From a virus (taxonomy: Duplodnaviria; Caudoviricetes): a stretch of DNA of 33,960 bases. Location of the stretch: the IMG/VR virus record IMGVR_UViG_3300011339_000113, positions 1 to 33,960 of that record; one strand, 5' to 3'. The notes under the pieces were generated by a model. It was given only the letters and a program-made list of their open reading frames with translations, was not told the origin of the DNA and made no database searches. The translations under genes and the position numbers were made by a program. The number at the start of each line of letters is the position of its first letter. Within the stretch, counting starts at the first letter, position 1. Below, piece after piece: positions 4,296 through 16,572 of this stretch.

Positions 4296-5777
4296 TTATG
4301 CAACCCTAGACAGGTTTCTTTTCAGCGGTTGCCCCCACTTGGTGCTGGCTTTAGACCCCATCATGCCGATTACAGCGTCACTTGCAAACGTCAAGCAGAA
4401 TGCATCAGCCTTGTCCGGTGAGGCTAAACCGCGCTTCTTGATCTCGTCCTTGCTCTCAATCTGAATCTTGCCGTTGGACGTAAACATATACCGAACGGTC
4501 GCCAACTCGGCCACCAGTAGCTCATCCTTTGGCAGCCGACAATCCCGCTGCTCTAGCCACGCCTTGGCCTTGTACCAAAGCTCGGCCTTCAGATTCCGAT
4601 ACGTCCCGCCCATGGCCGGACTCTCGCTGACGTTGATTCCGCGTGCAGGCAGTCCCAACTCTTTCAACCGATCCACGACTCCGGCACCAAGCCCAATGCT
4701 GTCAACCAGTATCTCTTCGGGTCTGTCGCTTGGCGGCAACGCCTCAAACTCAACCACTACCGCGCCCGTCAGCTGCATCAAGTCCAAATTCTTCCACGTC
4801 TTGATCGGCTCAGTCACCGCGTTCCCCCGCCGCTTGCACAGCGCCGAGCGGTCAGAGCCAAAGCGTGCAACGTCCAATCCCCAGACCAGCGGCGCGTAAG
4901 GTGAGGCCACTACATCCCGATTCATCGCCAAGTCCAGCAACTCCATGGGTATAACGGTGTCCTCGTCACTCCTTGGGAATTCCCCCAGCACGCGAATTCG
5001 GTAGGCGTTTGACTCTTCGCCATACCGCGCTTTCATCTCCTCAATGTAAGCCTCAGACACCCTCGGCGAGTCGGCGCAGGAAACCTTCATGGTCACCCAA
5101 TCCCCCGCCAGACGGTTATGGGTGTCATAGAAGAACCCGCTACTCCTTACCGGATTTCCCAGCAGCAACGTGACGGCGTTATGGCCGGACATACTTCCGC
5201 TGGCCGCCTCAAACACCTTCTCCGGTATACCGCTGGCCTCGTCCCCCACCAGCATCACATGGTCGCTGTGTACGCCTTGCAAGGCTTCCGGCTGCTCTGC
5301 CCTCGATGTCCTGGCTGAGATAAACGCCTCCTCGTTGGCATCCTTCACCTCAATGCGGTCCTGCTTCACCTCCAACATATCAGCCAGCATCGGCGGCAGC
5401 ACCTTCACCCACCGCTTGACCTCCGCAAACAGCGCGTCATACAGCTGGCTGCTCGTTGGTGCCGTCACCACCACCTTTACCGGAAATCTCAGCAACAAGT
5501 ACCAGATCATCGCCCAGGCACTGGCCGTGGACTTCCCAACGCCATGGCCTGATCTGACAGAGATACGCCGGTTGCCCTTGGCAATGTGATTCAAGAATTC
5601 CACCTGCCACGGGTCAGGCTCAGTGTTCAGCACCTCTCTGACGAAGAGTACAGGGTTGTTCTTGTACAGCTTGACGAATTCAACAAATGGATTGTTTACC
5701 AGCAAGTCATCGGATTTTTTTTTCGGGATGCGCGGCTTTGTGGGGGCTAGGGGTAGGGGGTCGGTCATGTTCGGCAT
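4296..5777 (-). CDS. terL: Terminase large subunit
   Basis: Walker A (SGHGVGKS), Walker B (LVGDEA), motif III (LLGNP) and an RNase H-like nuclease domain (GLDVARFGSD ... SPDKADA). The start could be 5768. Confidence 0.95.
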   Translation of the reverse strand: MPNMTDPLPLAPTKPRIPKKKSDDLLVNNPFVEFVKLYKNNPVLFVREVLNTEPDPWQVEFLNHIAKGNRRISVRSGHGVGKSTASAWAMIWYLLLRFPVKVVVTAPTSSQLYDALFAEVKRWVKVLPPMLADMLEVKQDRIEVKDANEEAFISARTSRAEQPEALQGVHSDHVMLVGDEASGIPEKVFEAASGSMSGHNAVTLLLGNPVRSSGFFYDTHNRLAGDWVTMKVSCADSPRVSEAYIEEMKARYGEESNAYRIRVLGEFPRSDEDTVIPMELLDLAMNRDVVASPYAPLVWGLDVARFGSDRSALCKRRGNAVTEPIKTWKNLDLMQLTGAVVVEFEALPPSDRPEEILVDSIGLGAGVVDRLKELGLPARGINVSESPAMGGTYRNLKAELWYKAKAWLEQRDCRLPKDELLVAELATVRYMFTSNGKIQIESKDEIKKRGLASPDKADAFCLTFASDAVIGMMGSKASTKWGQPLKRNLSRVA

Positions 5778-5916
5778 ACGTCAGGCTGTGGGATTCGGTA
5801 GGTGTTCGGTTGCATCTTCAGCCGCCCCCGCCGAAATCGCGCAAGGGGGGGGGTCATCGCCGCCCACAGCCAGCGGCACGCTCCAGCGCCAGCCGCGGCC
5901 ACTTTACCGCTGGAAG

Positions 5917-5925
5917 TTATCCACA
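5917..5925 (+). promoter_or_regulatory. DnaA box 1
   Basis: Perfect TTATCCACA. Confidence 0.8.
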
Positions 5926-5939
5926 ATCCACTATTCATG

Positions 5940-5952
5940 CAAGTCATTGATC
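5940..5952 (-). promoter_or_regulatory. IHF-binding-site-like sequence
   Basis: Minus strand reads GATCAATGACTTG against consensus WATCAANNNNTTR (one mismatch), next to an AT-rich tract. Confidence 0.45.
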
Positions 5953-5985
5953 TATATGCTTTCTTACAGAATGCTGACATATTCC

Positions 5986-6013
5986 ATTTAATACGATGTC
6001 CATTATGTTAAGT
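5986..6013 (+). other. dif-like XerC/XerD recombination site
   Basis: ATTTAATACGA-TGTCCA-TTATGTTAAGT has the 11-6-11 architecture; the right arm matches the XerD arm TTATGTTAAAT at 10/11. Confidence 0.65.
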
Positions 6014-6017
6014 CAAT

Positions 6018-6026
6018 TGTGGATAA
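6018..6026 (-). promoter_or_regulatory. DnaA box 2
   Basis: TGTGGATAA, a perfect box on the minus strand. Confidence 0.8.
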
Positions 6027-6063
6027 CTGACCAGTATTTGCTCAACAAACAGGCAGAGTTGCG

Positions 6064-6072
6064 TTATCCACA
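6064..6072 (+). promoter_or_regulatory. DnaA box 3
   Basis: Perfect TTATCCACA. Confidence 0.8.
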
Positions 6073-6094
6073 GGGCAATGTGTTCAATCATGGC

Positions 6095-6526
6095 TTAATC
6101 GTGCCTATCGCCTGTGGATAACTCATCGACAACCTCAACATGGCGCAGTGCCGCCATGCGTAAATCTTGGATGTTGATGTTGATCGAGGCTGCTTTTTGT
6201 AGGCCGTAAGTCTTCTGATCCCATCGCTCGGCCAGCCACTGCCTCGTTCTGATGCGCTGGACATCGCGCTGCGGATGCTCCACGTCCATGTCATCCGCAA
6301 TGGACATTGTCTCTACCGCCAACTTATCGGCGGCTATCGCGCGCGCACGCGCAATTATAGAGGGATCGGTATCTTCGATCCATTGCTCTAGCGCCCTGCG
6401 CCCGATGCCAAGTTCGTAGCAGATCGTGGTCTGTGACTTGCCTGCCTCAAACATGGACACGATCATGTCGTGAGGCAGATCCTCAAGCAGAGCCATGTCC
6501 TGTCTGAATTTCGGTCTTCCTGCCAC
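6095..6526 (-). CDS. terS: Terminase small subunit
   Basis: N-terminal GRP and HTH, then ARARAIAADKLA...IADD and RIRTRQWLAERWDQKTYG (P22/Sf6-like TerS); GTG start with GAGGAGG RBS; upstream of terL. Confidence 0.85.
   Translation of the reverse strand: MAGRPKFRQDMALLEDLPHDMIVSMFEAGKSQTTICYELGIGRRALEQWIEDTDPSIIARARAIAADKLAVETMSIADDMDVEHPQRDVQRIRTRQWLAERWDQKTYGLQKAASININIQDLRMAALRHVEVVDELSTGDRHD
6113..6121 (-). promoter_or_regulatory. DnaA box 4 (within the terS 3' end)
   Basis: TGTGGATAA; encodes L-S-T of TerS. Confidence 0.75.
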
Positions 6527-6583
6527 GCTCAGACCCTCCTCAGAGCCGTTTTAATCCGCTGGACTATATCCAGTACCCATTGT

Positions 6584-7267
6584 TTAATTCGCTGCATTCT
6601 TGAGCCTTCCTGCGAGTTTGGTGTCGAATTTCTTTTCCATGACTTCATTGTCATCGAATTTCAAGTCGTTTTCAAAGTCATCAAATCCTGTTGCACCGCC
6701 CAGCTTGAATTCTGATGTCGGTTTGAATGCTGTGACTTTGGCCGTTGGGAATAGTGCTTTGATCTTGATGACCTGTTGCATACGCTCATCGGCCATCAGT
6801 GCCTCGATCTCTTCCATGCTCCAGATGTTCTGATTGCTGATGTCTTGACGCTCCCGCTGTATTGCCACGGCCTCGTTGACAGTTCTGGTGATCACCATGA
6901 CCTGGCCGTTTTGCATCTCCCACTCAATCCTTGGGATGCTGTCGCTGGCTGGCGTTATGCCTTGATCGGCTGCCCACTGATCCAGCACGCCATACGCCCT
7001 GATCATTCCCGCCAGGCTTGAATCGAATTTCGCCTGATCCTTTGCCGTGATTGCTTGCTGCAATCTGGCGTTCTGAATCCAGAATTTTTCTCTCAGCCCA
7101 CTGTCAACTAAAGTAATCAGTCGATTTTCTCCCCATTTCCTGTCGCTGACCGCCTTGGCTGACTCCAGTTCCACCAGTTTGGATTGAACGTAAATCGTCC
7201 AAGGGTCTGCTTGTTGGATTGGACTCGTTGCTGGTGGATGCTGTCTGCTCTTTTGCTTTGTTGCCAT
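6584..7267 (-). CDS. Hypothetical protein (227 aa)
   Basis: Long ORF; start reassigned to the ATG at 7267, which follows AAGGAG. Confidence 0.75.
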   Translation of the reverse strand: MATKQKSRQHPPATSPIQQADPWTIYVQSKLVELESAKAVSDRKWGENRLITLVDSGLREKFWIQNARLQQAITAKDQAKFDSSLAGMIRAYGVLDQWAADQGITPASDSIPRIEWEMQNGQVMVITRTVNEAVAIQRERQDISNQNIWSMEEIEALMADERMQQVIKIKALFPTAKVTAFKPTSEFKLGGATGFDDFENDLKFDDNEVMEKKFDTKLAGRLKNAAN

Positions 7268-11306: not shown

Positions 11307-11512
11307 GAATCTCTTTCTAAGTGATGTTCGTTGATGATGATCTGGTACGCCAGCTGGCGTACCTCAGTGCTTGTCGCATGACCTAAGTCCTCGGGATCAA
11401 GCAGCCGCTTGAGGAATACGACTTTGTCCTGGTTGGCTTTGCGCTGCTTTTCCAGCATCTCGGCCAGCCAGACTATGTGCTGGCGCATGATCTGTCGTTC
11501 CTTGTCAGCCAT
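11288..11512 (-). CDS. Hypothetical protein (74 aa)
   Basis: ORF coupled to its neighbours; contains LLDPEDLGHA. Confidence 0.65.
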   Translation of the reverse strand: MADKERQIMRQHIVWLAEMLEKQRKANQDKVVFLKRLLDPEDLGHATSTEVRQLAYQIIINEHHLERDSWQQSN

Positions 11513-11975
11513 TGCGGATACCCCACATTGCAATCAGCGTTGCCTCGGCGCGGCCTTCATCCTTGACGCGCTTGAAGTGTTCCGACATCTCTGGGAATAA
11601 CTCAATGGCGCGTTGACGGGATGCGTCCTTGCCGGCAGCCTTGCCCATGGCCTTCGTCCAAGTCGCTGGTGCCACATAGGTCACTGGCACACTGAGTCCA
11701 GCCAGCACGCCTTCAACGACACCGAGGCTGCGGCCAAAGCCAAACATGGCCGTCACGCCCTGACCTGGCCGTGCGGCAGGCCGTTCCACAATGGCTTGGT
11801 CTGGTTTGAGGTTGCCAATGATCTCAGCCAGCAGCTGCGGTGAAACTTGCCGCTTTGACTTCTTGTTGATGTCCACCGTGAGCGTTGGCATATCGTGTAC
11901 CGACAGCAATTGACCGTCAACCAGCACCGCTATTGCGCCATTTAAGCCGCAGTCAATACCCAATGTGACCTTCAT
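11505..11975 (-). CDS. RuvC-like Holliday junction resolvase
   Basis: LGIDCGLNGAIA, AIVE, FGFGRSLG, PATW and DEGRAEA. Confidence 0.88.
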   Translation of the reverse strand: MKVTLGIDCGLNGAIAVLVDGQLLSVHDMPTLTVDINKKSKRQVSPQLLAEIIGNLKPDQAIVERPAARPGQGVTAMFGFGRSLGVVEGVLAGLSVPVTYVAPATWTKAMGKAAGKDASRQRAIELFPEMSEHFKRVKDEGRAEATLIAMWGIRNG

Positions 11976-12208
11976 TTAACGGCATCCTCCATGGCCTTGT
12001 TGAGTACCTGTAGCCGCGCTGTGATGAGCGCGTCTGCGGCCTGCTCCAAGCGGATGACGGTGCTGTAGAGTGGCTCTGTTTGACCGTTTACCCAGCGCGA
12101 GAGCTGCGCCTGGTCGATTTCTGCGACACGGCAGAGATCGGACATCCGATAACCGGCTGACTCAATCTTGTGCTTGATGTCCTGAATGGCTTGCTGTGAG
12201 ACTTTCAT
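11972..12208 (-). CDS. XRE-family HTH regulator (Cro-like)
   Basis: MSDLCRVAEIDQAQLSRWVNGQTEPLYST forms an HTH; first gene of the leftward arm; probable start at ATG 12208. Confidence 0.85.
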   Translation of the reverse strand: MKVSQQAIQDIKHKIESAGYRMSDLCRVAEIDQAQLSRWVNGQTEPLYSTVIRLEQAADALITARLQVLNKAMEDAVK

Positions 12209-12215
12209 GTTTACA

Positions 12216-12245
12216 ATGTTAACCATGTTTTGTGGAAAGCGTCAA
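12216..12245 (-). promoter_or_regulatory. Leftward sigma70 promoter
   Basis: TTGACG-N18-TAACAT; the predicted +1 falls at or near the ATG at 12208. Confidence 0.55.
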
Positions 12246-12255
12246 GTGTACAGCG

Positions 12256-12285
12256 AAAAAAGGGGATCAGCGTAAACCGATCCCC
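12256..12285 (-). terminator. Rho-independent terminator (leftward) with no upstream CDS
   Basis: GGGGATC-GGTTTACGCT-GATCCCC-TTTTTT. Confidence 0.75.
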
Positions 12286-12317
12286 AAAGGCAACTGCTGG
12301 AAAGCAAAGACCAGCAG
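12256..12317 (-). ncRNA. Candidate two-hairpin antisense small RNA
   Basis: TACAAT -10 at 12327-12322, CTGCTGG/CCAGCAG hairpin and terminator; contains UUUGCUUUCC, complementary to 12425-12434. Confidence 0.45.
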
Positions 12318-12371
12318 GGACATTGTAGTGGCTGAATACTTGACTGACTTATAAGGTCTAAATAATAGTTG

Positions 12372-12399
12372 TTGACGAGTTAGTCAAAGATGATATGAT
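12372..12399 (+). promoter_or_regulatory. Rightward sigma70 promoter with an overlapping palindromic operator candidate
   Basis: TTGACG-N16-TATGAT with an extended -10 (TGn); inverted repeat TTGAC-N6-GTCAA at 12372-12387. Confidence 0.65.
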
Positions 12400-12434
12400 T
12401 CATCCATCAACAACGCAACTTAAAGGAAAGCAAA

Positions 12435-12815
12435 ATGAACACAACTTACAAAGCATACGCAGTATCTGATCTGTACGAAGCTGGCATCTCTTGTGACGGT
12501 CACCCATTTATTGCTGAAAAATATTATGTCTTGATTGAGAACGCAGCTGGCCGCCGTTTTCGTCATGAAAAGTCTTTTGCTGGCGTAGAAGTTGTAGAGT
12601 GCGAAGAAACTGGCGAAACAGGATTTGCTGATATTCGTCAAGATGCTGTAGCCATTGTTGAAGAGTTAGCCGCCAAAGTTAATGTTGTTTTGGCTTTAGG
12701 TAAGCCTTTGACAGCATCTTGCTGGTTTGAAGTCGATCCAGCTTATGGCTCTGATGCCTACATTGATCAAGGTACAGAGTCAAAGCGTCTTTTTGCAGAA
12801 AAGTTAGCCGCCTAA
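12435..12815 (+). CDS. Hypothetical early protein (126 aa)
   Basis: AAGGA RBS, AT-rich codon usage, first rightward gene. Confidence 0.8.
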   Translation: MNTTYKAYAVSDLYEAGISCDGHPFIAEKYYVLIENAAGRRFRHEKSFAGVEVVECEETGETGFADIRQDAVAIVEELAAKVNVVLALGKPLTASCWFEVDPAYGSDAYIDQGTESKRLFAEKLAA

Positions 12816-14757: not shown

Positions 14758-15106
14758 CTTGCTACAGCGCACCGGCTGCACAGCGCCAGAGCTGGCGGCC
14801 AAGGTGTACTGCACCGAGAGGTCAGCGCAGCAGATGATCAAGCGGCTGCGGCTGGCTGGCACCGTACACATTCAGGAATGGTCTAGATCAGGCCGCATAC
14901 TGGTGGCCGTGTATAGGTACGGCATTGGCACTGATGCAGACAGACCGCTACCGCTGACACCTGTAGAGCGTTTGCGTAAGCATCGAGCGCGTGAGACATT
15001 GGACGATAAGGCTTTCCGCTTGGCGCGTGAAAGAGGTCATAGGCTTAAGCCACGGCGCGATCCGCTGGTGGCTGCGTTTTATGGGAATAGCAAGGAAGCT
15101 GGCTGA
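14726..15106 (+). CDS. Winged-helix DNA-binding protein (126 aa)
   Basis: TAPELAAKVYCTERSAQQMIKRLR HTH plus wing; basic C-terminus. Confidence 0.7.
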   Translation: MKSARLPKIIDLLQRTGCTAPELAAKVYCTERSAQQMIKRLRLAGTVHIQEWSRSGRILVAVYRYGIGTDADRPLPLTPVERLRKHRARETLDDKAFRLARERGHRLKPRRDPLVAAFYGNSKEAG

Positions 15107-16572
15107 CGGCGCTGCAATTCTTCTGTTGTAGGCTCTGCCGCCAATAGATCAGGCAATGCAACTCCCGCAGCAATTGCTGTTGCAACGTCTTTACGCAATG
15201 GGTCAAAGGCGGCAAATTTAGATCTTATCTGATCGGGTTTAAAGACAACCCCAACATCTACTAGTTTTGCAGGGCCACCGCCAGGATCAAATGTGTTTTT
15301 CAATATCAAAGCATCATGACCGCCAGCCAAAGCCTGATCAATCAAATCAGAATATGTTTGCTCTCTATATGATTTGCCGCCAAAGTCATGAACCATAGGG
15401 TTTTTGTAGCGTAATGCAACAGGCATGACGTTGCCACCTGTTTGGGTTTTTTCAATAAGAGCACGTTCATTCTTAACAGCTCTAAATTTATCTATTTCGT
15501 TTATTGCAGATTTAGCTGCATCTTCACCAACTAATTGGCTTATTTCTTTTTTTAATCCTTTGAGTTGGGCATCTGAATAACTGTTATACCAACCATAAGG
15601 CATTAATTCTTTATATTTCTTATCTAACAATTCAGCTTGCGCTTGTGGATGTTGCAAACTGTAAAATGTTTGGTTAATCTTTTCGGTCATGGTGTCTCTG
15701 GTATCACCATACTTTGCAACCAAAGATTGTGCTTCTTGCATTCTTTGTATTTCAGAATCTTCCGCAATTTGCATTTGCTTGTCGTGTTCGTTCCAATCGC
15801 CACGCTTTTCTGCTGATTTTGCTTTACGCATAGCTTCTCTGTATTCTCTAGAACCGCCAATCTGAGCATATCCAGATGCGGTTTCTGCCCCATGTCCTTG
15901 CATTGAAACTTGATTTAATTTGGCAATTTGATCATCAGGTATGCCTAATTTTTTAAGCATATCAATACTTGATTGATCTGTTGTTCTTGTCATCATTGAT
16001 GCAGGAGGATTTTGAGGGTCTCTAGCAAAGAAAAATCCTTTTTTTGCACTTTGAGCGCCAGTGGCTTCACCAAGCAAATTTGGATTAAAATTGGTTATAT
16101 CCCCAGTAGAACCGTGATACCAATCATGCTCATACCCTTGTTGCAATGATCTTGGATATGGATCTAAAGATTGACCAGTTTGCATTGCATTTTGTTTTGC
16201 TAACTCTAAAGCTGCCTCTTGTGGAGTTTTAACCGCTTTAATACTCATCCCAACAGGCATACCCTCAGTGGCGCGAATAGCACGACTCGCCAATCTACCC
16301 ACCACTGGCGCAAATGGCGCAACATTCATTAAGGCATCAGCAGTCTCAGGTTTGAGCAATGGCACATTGGCTCGGCCAATGTTGGTGAGTGGCTCACCAT
16401 ACGCCATGCGCTGAGTGGTTTTCGGAATGCCAGTAGATTCCAGCAGACCCGCCAAGCCTTGCATCTGTTGCGCTCTTTGCGGAGACTTCATCCAATCCAG
16501 ACCACCATACATGGCATCAGATAAGAGTCCCAGCAACTCGTTGCGCGGTGTGGCTTGTAGGTTGTCTGCCAT
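15079..16572 (-). CDS. Putative ejected protein with an ADP-ribosyltransferase-like (ART-PolyVal) domain
   Basis: WYHGS...F, GFFFA, ASGYA, GGNVMPVALRYKNP, GHDALIL and VVFKPDQIRSKFAAFDP. Confidence 0.7.
   Translation of the reverse strand: MADNLQATPRNELLGLLSDAMYGGLDWMKSPQRAQQMQGLAGLLESTGIPKTTQRMAYGEPLTNIGRANVPLLKPETADALMNVAPFAPVVGRLASRAIRATEGMPVGMSIKAVKTPQEAALELAKQNAMQTGQSLDPYPRSLQQGYEHDWYHGSTGDITNFNPNLLGEATGAQSAKKGFFFARDPQNPPASMMTRTTDQSSIDMLKKLGIPDDQIAKLNQVSMQGHGAETASGYAQIGGSREYREAMRKAKSAEKRGDWNEHDKQMQIAEDSEIQRMQEAQSLVAKYGDTRDTMTEKINQTFYSLQHPQAQAELLDKKYKELMPYGWYNSYSDAQLKGLKKEISQLVGEDAAKSAINEIDKFRAVKNERALIEKTQTGGNVMPVALRYKNPMVHDFGGKSYREQTYSDLIDQALAGGHDALILKNTFDPGGGPAKLVDVGVVFKPDQIRSKFAAFDPLRKDVATAIAAGVALPDLLAAEPTTEELQRRQPASLLFP

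What the first reader, a model, noticed from the sequence alone, without database searches (positions are those of the whole stretch)
5986..6013. dif-like XerCD site in an integrase-less tailed phage
Seen: ATTTAATACGA-TGTCCA-TTATGTTAAGT, an 11-6-11 pseudo-palindrome with a 10/11 match to the XerD arm TTATGTTAAAT and a divergent XerC arm, 4 bp from DnaA box 2. I recognised no recombinase gene in the genome. Known: host XerCD acts at dif, plasmid cer/psi/pdif sites and IMEX elements such as CTXphi. Inference: host XerCD could resolve phage circle multimers, maintain a plasmid-like state, or integrate the phage at chromosomal dif. Integration here would separate terS from terL and act as a genetic switch. 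An origin-type and a terminus-type signal within 100 bp of each other may be an undescribed system.
Basis: partly seen in the sequence, partly recalled or inferred. Interest (0 to 1): 0.85.

Follow-up and report, generated by a model that had tools for sequence, protein, structure and literature searches.

The report
Host dif site at phage ends
A common lake phage with no recombinase gene of its own carries a close copy of its probable host's chromosome-untangling site (dif), flanked by DnaA boxes, in the stretch predicted to be repeated at both ends of its packaged DNA, so it likely borrows the host's XerC/XerD enzymes to join its own ends rather than to insert into the chromosome.

Summary
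The 28-bp site is unique in this complete 34-kb podophage and conserved in 78 of 80 terS relatives. The XerC arm is not divergent: both arms match the dif of Limnohabitans-type genomes (9/11 and 11/11). Only the spacer differs (TGTCCA; host mostly TGTATA), and it varies freely among the phages. Integration is unsupported: no prophage or hybrid junction was found, whereas inovirus-like elements carrying the host spacer were easy to find. The site lies about 175 bp inside the right genome end projected from phiM5 (terL 55%, annotated 357-bp terminal repeat ending just after the same C/G hairpin). Contig depths step up near that point (weak support). With an IHF-like motif and 2-6 DnaA boxes it forms an optional cassette, found in either orientation and in unrelated terminase lineages. 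Best reading: host XerCD likely recombines the two repeat copies to circularise the genome, a loxP without Cre; multimer resolution is the main rival. Neither the ends nor recombination were shown. My paper searches did not find this, but this scan noted similar sites earlier in other phages.

The parts
5986..5996 (+). XerC-type arm ATTTAATACGA
   Evidence: 9/11 to the dif arm of the Limnohabitans-labelled MAG; inner TACGA is the commonest inner arm among listed host matches
5997..6002 (+). 6-bp spacer TGTCCA (host mostly TGTATA)
   Evidence: 14 spacer types among 38 distinct phage sites, none TGTATA
6003..6013 (+). XerD-type arm TTATGTTAAGT
   Evidence: 11/11 to many Limnohabitans-genus dif sites; TTATGT invariant in 38 of 38 distinct phage sites
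5917..5925 (+). DnaA box 1 (XerC side; not kept in all relatives)
6018..6026 (-). DnaA box 2, 4 bp from the XerD arm
6064..6072 (+). DnaA box 3
6113..6121 (-). DnaA box 4, inside the 3' end of terS
5940..5951 (-). IHF-like motif ATCAATGACTTG (consensus recalled), starting about 45 bp from the XerC arm
   Evidence: the motif alone is not rare: 5 found, 2.9 expected; same offset in 59 of 59 distinct terS loci
5824..5854 (-). C-run/G-run hairpin shared with the end of phiM5's terminal repeat; predicted right genome end near 5812
   Evidence: inferred by homology
6095..6526 (-). terminase small subunit; the predicted left end of the repeat lies in it
   Evidence: PF20901, phrog_1482; repeat position inferred
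4296..5777 (-). terminase large subunit, 55% identical to phiM5 TerL
11505..11975 (-). RuvC-like Holliday junction resolvase (possible finisher of a XerC-made junction; no link shown)
   Evidence: phrog_1770 E 3e-33

Best explanation
The site is a host-type XerC/XerD site that likely lies inside a short direct terminal repeat, where host XerCD would recombine the two copies of the injected linear DNA into a circle. Shown: the site, its match to Limnohabitans-type dif arms, its conservation, the lack of a phage recombinase and the lack of any detected prophage. Inferred: (1) the packaged genome ends near 5812 and begins inside terS, so site, IHF-like motif and DnaA boxes occur at both ends; (2) the spacer only has to match its own twin, which explains why it drifts among phages and differs from the host's, and this would hinder crossover with the chromosome; (3) IHF and DnaA would help bend or pair the ends or time the reaction, and a XerC-made junction would be finished by replication or by a resolvase such as the phage's RuvC-like protein.
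For: Arms match host dif while the spacer varies. phiM5's annotated 357-bp repeat runs from inside its terS to 12 bp past the same hairpin, upstream of terL. Projected onto the window this gives an end at about 5812, and a repeat of that length would cover the site and all four boxes. Single-contig depths in two runs of one study imply a step at 5790-5820 inside unbroken contigs. A C6 or G6 run lies within about 250-300 bp of the site in 59/59 terS loci, 39/39 terL loci and 52/59 pattern loci, against 2/56 host loci. The cassette occurs in both orientations relative to the terminase genes, as expected if only direct repetition matters. 0 of 18 site-bearing near-complete records have PF00589, and the 3 integrase-bearing relatives among 30 records lack the site.
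Against: No genome end was observed: only contigs were available, depth sums include relatives, and contig ends near the site do not pile up at one base. The terminal-repeat inference rests on one cultured relative with 55% TerL identity and a different TerS family. The cassette is dispensable: it is absent in 3 of 50 close and 21 of 21 more distant terL relatives, several of them integrase-less too. The phage encodes an exonuclease that could circularise repeats by annealing instead. No XerD activator is evident: no DUF3653, and KOPS-like octamers are not clearly polar genome-wide (31 toward, 15 away; 20 to 13 beyond 400 bp). An active site in every unit of a concatemer could excise circles and harm packaging. 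Sequence cannot separate circularisation from multimer resolution.
Confidence: 0.45

Rival explanations
1. Host XerCD resolves dimers or multimers of the replicating phage circle, in lytic growth or in a plasmid-like carrier state, as at cer/psi; the position near the ends is incidental.
For: Same arm and spacer data. The IHF-like motif sits at a fixed offset on the XerC side, like an accessory sequence. A site with the same spacer lies inside an integrase-plus-primase element of genome G457 that has no obvious terminal repeat.
Against: No partition or plasmid Rep family among 56 ORFs. No capsid-gene match in 127 genus genomes (no positive control). It does not explain the tight link to the hairpin across unrelated terminase lineages.
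Confidence: 0.25
2. Binding without productive recombination: XerCD, IHF and DnaA coat the genome end (end protection, tethering, help for terminase) or are titrated away from the host's oriC and dif.
For: Sites for three host proteins cluster within about 200 bp. DnaA-box arrays occur in the T5 terminal repeat with no dif mentioned (bioRxiv 10.1101/866236, passages). No activator of XerD was found.
Against: The exact 11-6-11 geometry with both arms is kept in 38 of 38 distinct sites scored (the scoring pattern itself required that spacing). One site per genome is a weak sink.
Confidence: 0.2
3. IMEX-type integration at chromosomal dif, splitting terS from terL.
For: Arms match the host. The spacer's first three bases (TGT) match the host's on the XerC side, the configuration described for VGJphi (PMC5357621, passage). 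A few host dif sites have TGTGCA, one base from the phage spacer. dif-integrating elements exist in this host group.
Against: A terL scan of 185,579 species genomes gave only three hits of 72% or more, all on contigs of 3-13 kb, and the two with the site have terS-site-terL intact. The hybrid pattern had 0 matches in both collections, while the control pattern found 30. Both terminase genes flank the site in 67/68, 41/41 and 20/22 loci; the three exceptions are a fold-back chimera and another phage lineage. Close relatives have spacers such as CGGGCA, GGTTCA and CATTCA with no XerC-side match.
Confidence: 0.07

Closest known systems
P1 loxP/Cre cyclisation of terminally redundant DNA (recalled, not read here)
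   Same: A tyrosine-recombinase site placed so that both ends of the virion DNA would carry it.
   Different: No phage recombinase; the site is the host's dif type; predicted short fixed repeat rather than headful redundancy; lox activity is proven and this is not.
Chromosomal dif of Comamonadaceae/Burkholderiaceae (XerC/XerD/FtsK)
   Same: 11-6-11 layout; arms 9/11 and 11/11 to the Limnohabitans-labelled MAG site.
   Different: Different and variable spacer; no genome-wide KOPS polarity (host loci 34 toward, 0 away); DnaA boxes nearby (52 of 56 host loci have none).
Plasmid cer/psi resolution sites
   Same: Host XerCD site on an extrachromosomal replicon with a conserved protein-binding motif on the XerC side.
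   Different: The candidate accessory motif is IHF-like rather than PepA/ArgR; sits in a phage packaging region; resolution untested.
IMEX attP sites (CTXphi, VGJphi, TLCphi, gokushoviruses)
   Same: Integrase-less element with a dif-like site; VGJ-like XerC-side spacer match in this member.
   Different: Tailed dsDNA phage; no integrated copy found; no DUF3653; spacer not held to the host's.
Sinorhizobium phage phiM5 terminal repeat (MF074189)
   Same: Related TerL; terS 3' part, IHF-like word and C/G hairpin just before terL.
   Different: phiM5 has its own integrase and no dif-like site or DnaA box in the repeat.
T5 iss DnaA-box array (Davison, bioRxiv 10.1101/866236)
   Same: Clustered DnaA boxes in a phage terminal repeat.
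   Different: The paper's main text has no occurrence of dif or Xer; long repeat with two-step injection.

Membership tests
XerC/XerD core site | 11-6-11 layout with conserved inner XerD arm | tested here: met
XerC/XerD core site | Arms match the dif of a plausible host | tested here: met
   host itself inferred from this match and from MAG bins
XerC/XerD core site | Binding and strand exchange by XerC/XerD | not testable with these tools
   needs experiment
IMEX attP | No element-encoded integrase | tested here: met
IMEX attP | Integrated copies at host dif with hybrid junctions | tested here: not met
   negative result in mostly incomplete genomes
IMEX attP | Spacer homology to host dif (full, or XerC side) | tested here: inconclusive
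   TGT matches here, absent in several relatives
IMEX attP (TLC type) | XafT/DUF3653 activator | tested here: not met
Chromosomal dif/FtsK system | KOPS polarised towards the site | tested here: not met
   genome-wide 20 toward, 13 away beyond 400 bp in 17 phage records. Within 3-4 kb the own clade is all 'toward' but from a few shared positions, and other lineages are mixed.
cer/psi plasmid resolution site | Accessory sequence on the XerC side | tested here: inconclusive
   IHF-like motif at fixed offset; protein and need unknown
cer/psi plasmid resolution site | Plasmid replicon (Rep, par) | tested here: not met
   none among 56 ORFs
P1 lox-type cyclisation system | Site present in both terminal repeats | tested here: inconclusive
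   inferred from phiM5 and depth
P1 lox-type cyclisation system | Phage-encoded recombinase | tested here: not met
DnaA-dependent origin | Box cluster above chance | tested here: met
DnaA-dependent origin | Skew switch or fixed box architecture | tested here: not met
   no skew switch near 6 kb; 0-6 boxes in varying places

The most novel reading that the evidence does not exclude
Many integrase-less tailed phages carry a portable genome-end cassette (host dif + IHF site + DnaA boxes) inside their short terminal repeats and use host XerCD, without FtsK, to circularise on entry: a general loxP-without-Cre route, with DnaA and IHF as a new kind of accessory control, and a spacer kept different from the host's to avoid integration.
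Probability: 0.35. Interest if true: 0.85.

Novelty: new variant of a known kind. Interest (0 to 1): 0.66.

Why it matters
How short-repeat phages close their DNA into a circle is usually ascribed to unspecified recombination. A host-XerCD route would give a concrete mechanism, testable with one host knockout, and would extend Xer exploitation from integrating filamentous and small phages to tailed phages that appear not to integrate. Practically, the arms track host dif (TACGA in this host group), so the site may help assign hosts to uncultured phages, and the cassette may mark genome ends in assemblies.

Tried and rejected
Integration: no junction or prophage. The contig break at 5991/5993 in run X13 coincides with a T/C variant among relatives, not a junction. 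L032, the one terS locus without terL, folds back on phage DNA at the hairpin. Contig-end pile-up as evidence of termini: ends are scattered, so not used. KOPS polarity: rejected genome-wide. Origin by skew: none. Promoter or terminator reading of 5700-6600: 0 hits. BLASTN of the region against cultured phages gave chance hits only; terS has no match there. Cultured relatives of two other site-bearing terL lineages gave no terminus data. The phiM5 paper is not held, so its repeat is taken from the GenBank annotation. Three host matches with TTATGTCAACG lie in repetitive coding DNA and were discarded. No structure or complex prediction was run.

Full report
Observation. The site is at 5986-6013 exactly as reported. 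The window is a whole phage genome: it has a 127-nt end overlap and is rated 100% complete. It is a podophage with SU10-type portal, capsid and adaptor, a primase-helicase, an exonuclease, a RuvC-like resolvase and one HTH protein. No integrase, resolvase-type recombinase or DUF3653 protein was found in 56 ORFs or in six frames. The only four perfect DnaA boxes lie within 205 bp around the site (none of 100 shuffles reaches four). The site sits between terS (6095-6526) and terL (4296-5777).

Conservation. The site is present in 78 of 80 terS-anchored IMG/VR loci; the two misses end 2 and 106 bp after terS. Among 79 terL-anchored loci, 8 were dropped for having under 400 bp upstream. The site is in 47 of 50 loci at 78% identity or more and in 0 of 21 at 68-77%. 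Among 38 distinct 28-mers the TTATGT of the XerD arm and the AC of the XerC arm are invariant (the search pattern required these), while the spacer takes 14 forms. A pattern scan estimated about 400 stored stretches in IMG/VR and returned 120. Many belong to phages with TerL only 26-30% identical or unrelated. In these the site still lies near terminase genes in most loci inspected and near a C/G run (52 of 59 distinct loci). It occurs in either orientation relative to the terminase genes. Some close relatives run from terS to the hairpin with no site, so the cassette is optional. These locus sets overlap and are related, so the counts are not independent events.

Host match. The same pattern finds a match in 108 of 127 genomes of the genus of a Limnohabitans-labelled MAG and in 226 of 401 of its family, usually once per genome. 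KOPS-like octamers around 60 stored host loci point to the site 34 to 0, which supports these being real dif sites. That MAG's site is ACTTTATACGA TGTATA TTATGTTAAGT: 9/11 and 11/11 to the phage arms. The XerC arm is therefore host-like, not divergent, and points to a Comamonadaceae or Burkholderiaceae host (inferred). The host spacer is TGTATA in 19 of 30 genus loci and 23 of 30 family loci. None of the 38 phage sites has it.

Integration. A scan of 185,579 species genomes with a terL alignment found 234 relatives, of which the best 80 were examined. Only three were at 72% or more, on contigs of 3-13 kb, and the two with the site keep terS-site-terL intact. The capsid gene was not found in 127 genus genomes (no positive control). 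A host-arm/phage-flank hybrid pattern had no match in metagenome or viral contigs, while the phage-flank control found 30. The hybrid pattern covers one junction type and one flank only. Where both flanks were 500 bp or longer, both terminase genes were present in 67 of 68, 41 of 41 and 20 of 22 loci; the exceptions are a fold-back chimera and two contigs of another phage lineage. As a control, 35 viral contigs carry the host spacer. None matches the window's proteins within 1.5 kb, and 16 of 33 flanking ORFs tested hit Zot or Rep_trans, i.e. inovirus-like integrating elements. A VGJ-type XerC-only route remains formally possible for this member (PMC5357621, passage), but many relatives lack even that homology.

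Position at the genome end. The nearest relative with annotated ends is phiM5 (TerL 55%). Its 357-bp repeat starts inside a terS-family gene and ends 12 bp after a C-run/G-run hairpin, just upstream of terL. The window has the same hairpin at 5824-5854, which projects a right end near 5812, about 175 bp from the site. A repeat as long as phiM5's would hold the site, the IHF-like motif and all four boxes. In runs X3 and X8 (one study), unbroken contigs crossing this point have depths between flank and peak, implying a step at 5790-5820 if depth is two-level. X5 shows 66 against 36-39 and X2 90 against 51-75. X1 has one contig across the region and shows nothing. This is weak evidence: the data are contigs only, relatives add depth, and X2 and X3 may be the source sample. 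Phage C72C1 (TerL 47%, no integrase) has a CATAA-type dif-like site between terS and a similar hairpin. The three integrase-bearing records among 30 lack the site, all 18 site-bearing ones lack an integrase, and 9 scored as having neither under the strict pattern, C72C1 among them.

Accompanying motifs. An ATCAANNNNTT word (IHF consensus recalled) lies about 45-60 bp from the XerC arm in 59 of 59 terS loci, 19 of 39 terL loci and 33 of 59 pattern loci. Alone it is not rare. DnaA boxes number 0-6 with shifting positions and there is no skew switch, so an origin is not shown. KOPS are not clearly polar over 17 whole records.

Mechanism. Shown: a host-type Xer site kept in a cassette next to the terminase hairpin of recombinase-less phages, with no integrated copy found. 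Inferred: both virion ends carry it, XerCD pairs the twin sites, and a crossover yields a circle; the spacer needs to match only itself. Against this, the cassette is dispensable, no XerD activator is evident, and sequence cannot separate circularisation (0.45) from multimer resolution (0.25) or binding only (0.2). Integration gets 0.07.

Literature. Full-text searches (listings only) returned filamentous, microvirus, tectivirus and plasmid-prophage papers but none on host dif sites in tailed-phage terminal repeats. Subscription papers are mostly not covered. Passages only were read from PMC5357621, PMC2731167, PMC9226527, PMC6744903, bioRxiv 10.1101/866236, PMC12195039 and PMC13299392; no supplements were opened. 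P1 lox/Cre is recalled. This scan had earlier noted dif sites in or near terminal repeats of rV5-like and other phages. These are unchecked notes, not support. My P1-like reading was stated before seeing them; the terminal-repeat and IHF leads came partly from them and were then tested here.

Verdict. The feature is real and widespread: a new variant of Xer exploitation, most likely acting on the phage's own ends. Function and terminus position remain untested. Interest 0.66.

Noticed in passing
L434:1252-10010 (G457:C2, site at 116080): An integrase-plus-primase element (P4/satellite-like) in a Limnohabitans-genus genome carries ACTTTATACGA TGTCCA TTATGTTAAGT, the same spacer as the phage, just after its primase gene and without DnaA boxes; the chromosomal dif is on another contig.
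   Followed up: partly
L439:8515 (G011) and L441:8005 (G089): dif-like sites with non-host spacers (CGGGCG, GTGGCG) and nearby DnaA boxes in bacterial genomes, each before a small ORF; perhaps other mobile elements using the same cassette.
   Followed up: no
L032:1040-1060: Fold-back chimera whose junction falls in the C/G hairpin; a single case, compatible with a physical end there.
   Followed up: partly
L215, L224, L244, L259 (MAG contigs, TerL 46-63%): CATAA/GATAA/TATAA-type dif-like sites 220-430 bp upstream of terL in distant relatives, suggesting the arms follow different hosts.
   Followed up: no
L478-L512: 35 viral contigs, many inovirus-like, with Comamonadaceae-type dif; six of the flanking ORFs tested are KfrA_N-domain genes starting within about 450 bp of the site.
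   Followed up: partly
window 15079-16572: 497-aa ORF with a weak ART-PolyVal (ADP-ribosyltransferase) hit, E 7.5e-4, below the Pfam cut-off, at the end of the virion gene block.
   Followed up: no
window 11972-12435: HTH gene and a divergent early transcription unit, resembling a regulatory switch despite the lack of an integrase.
   Followed up: no
L475 (MW202483), about 1.1 kb upstream of terL: Two near-palindromic 28-mers with TTATGTAAACA arms 75 bp apart.
   Followed up: no
genus and family of G003: The dif XerC arm of this host group has inner TACGA/TACAA/CACGA rather than E. coli's CATAA, so E. coli-based scans misjudge it.
   Followed up: yes
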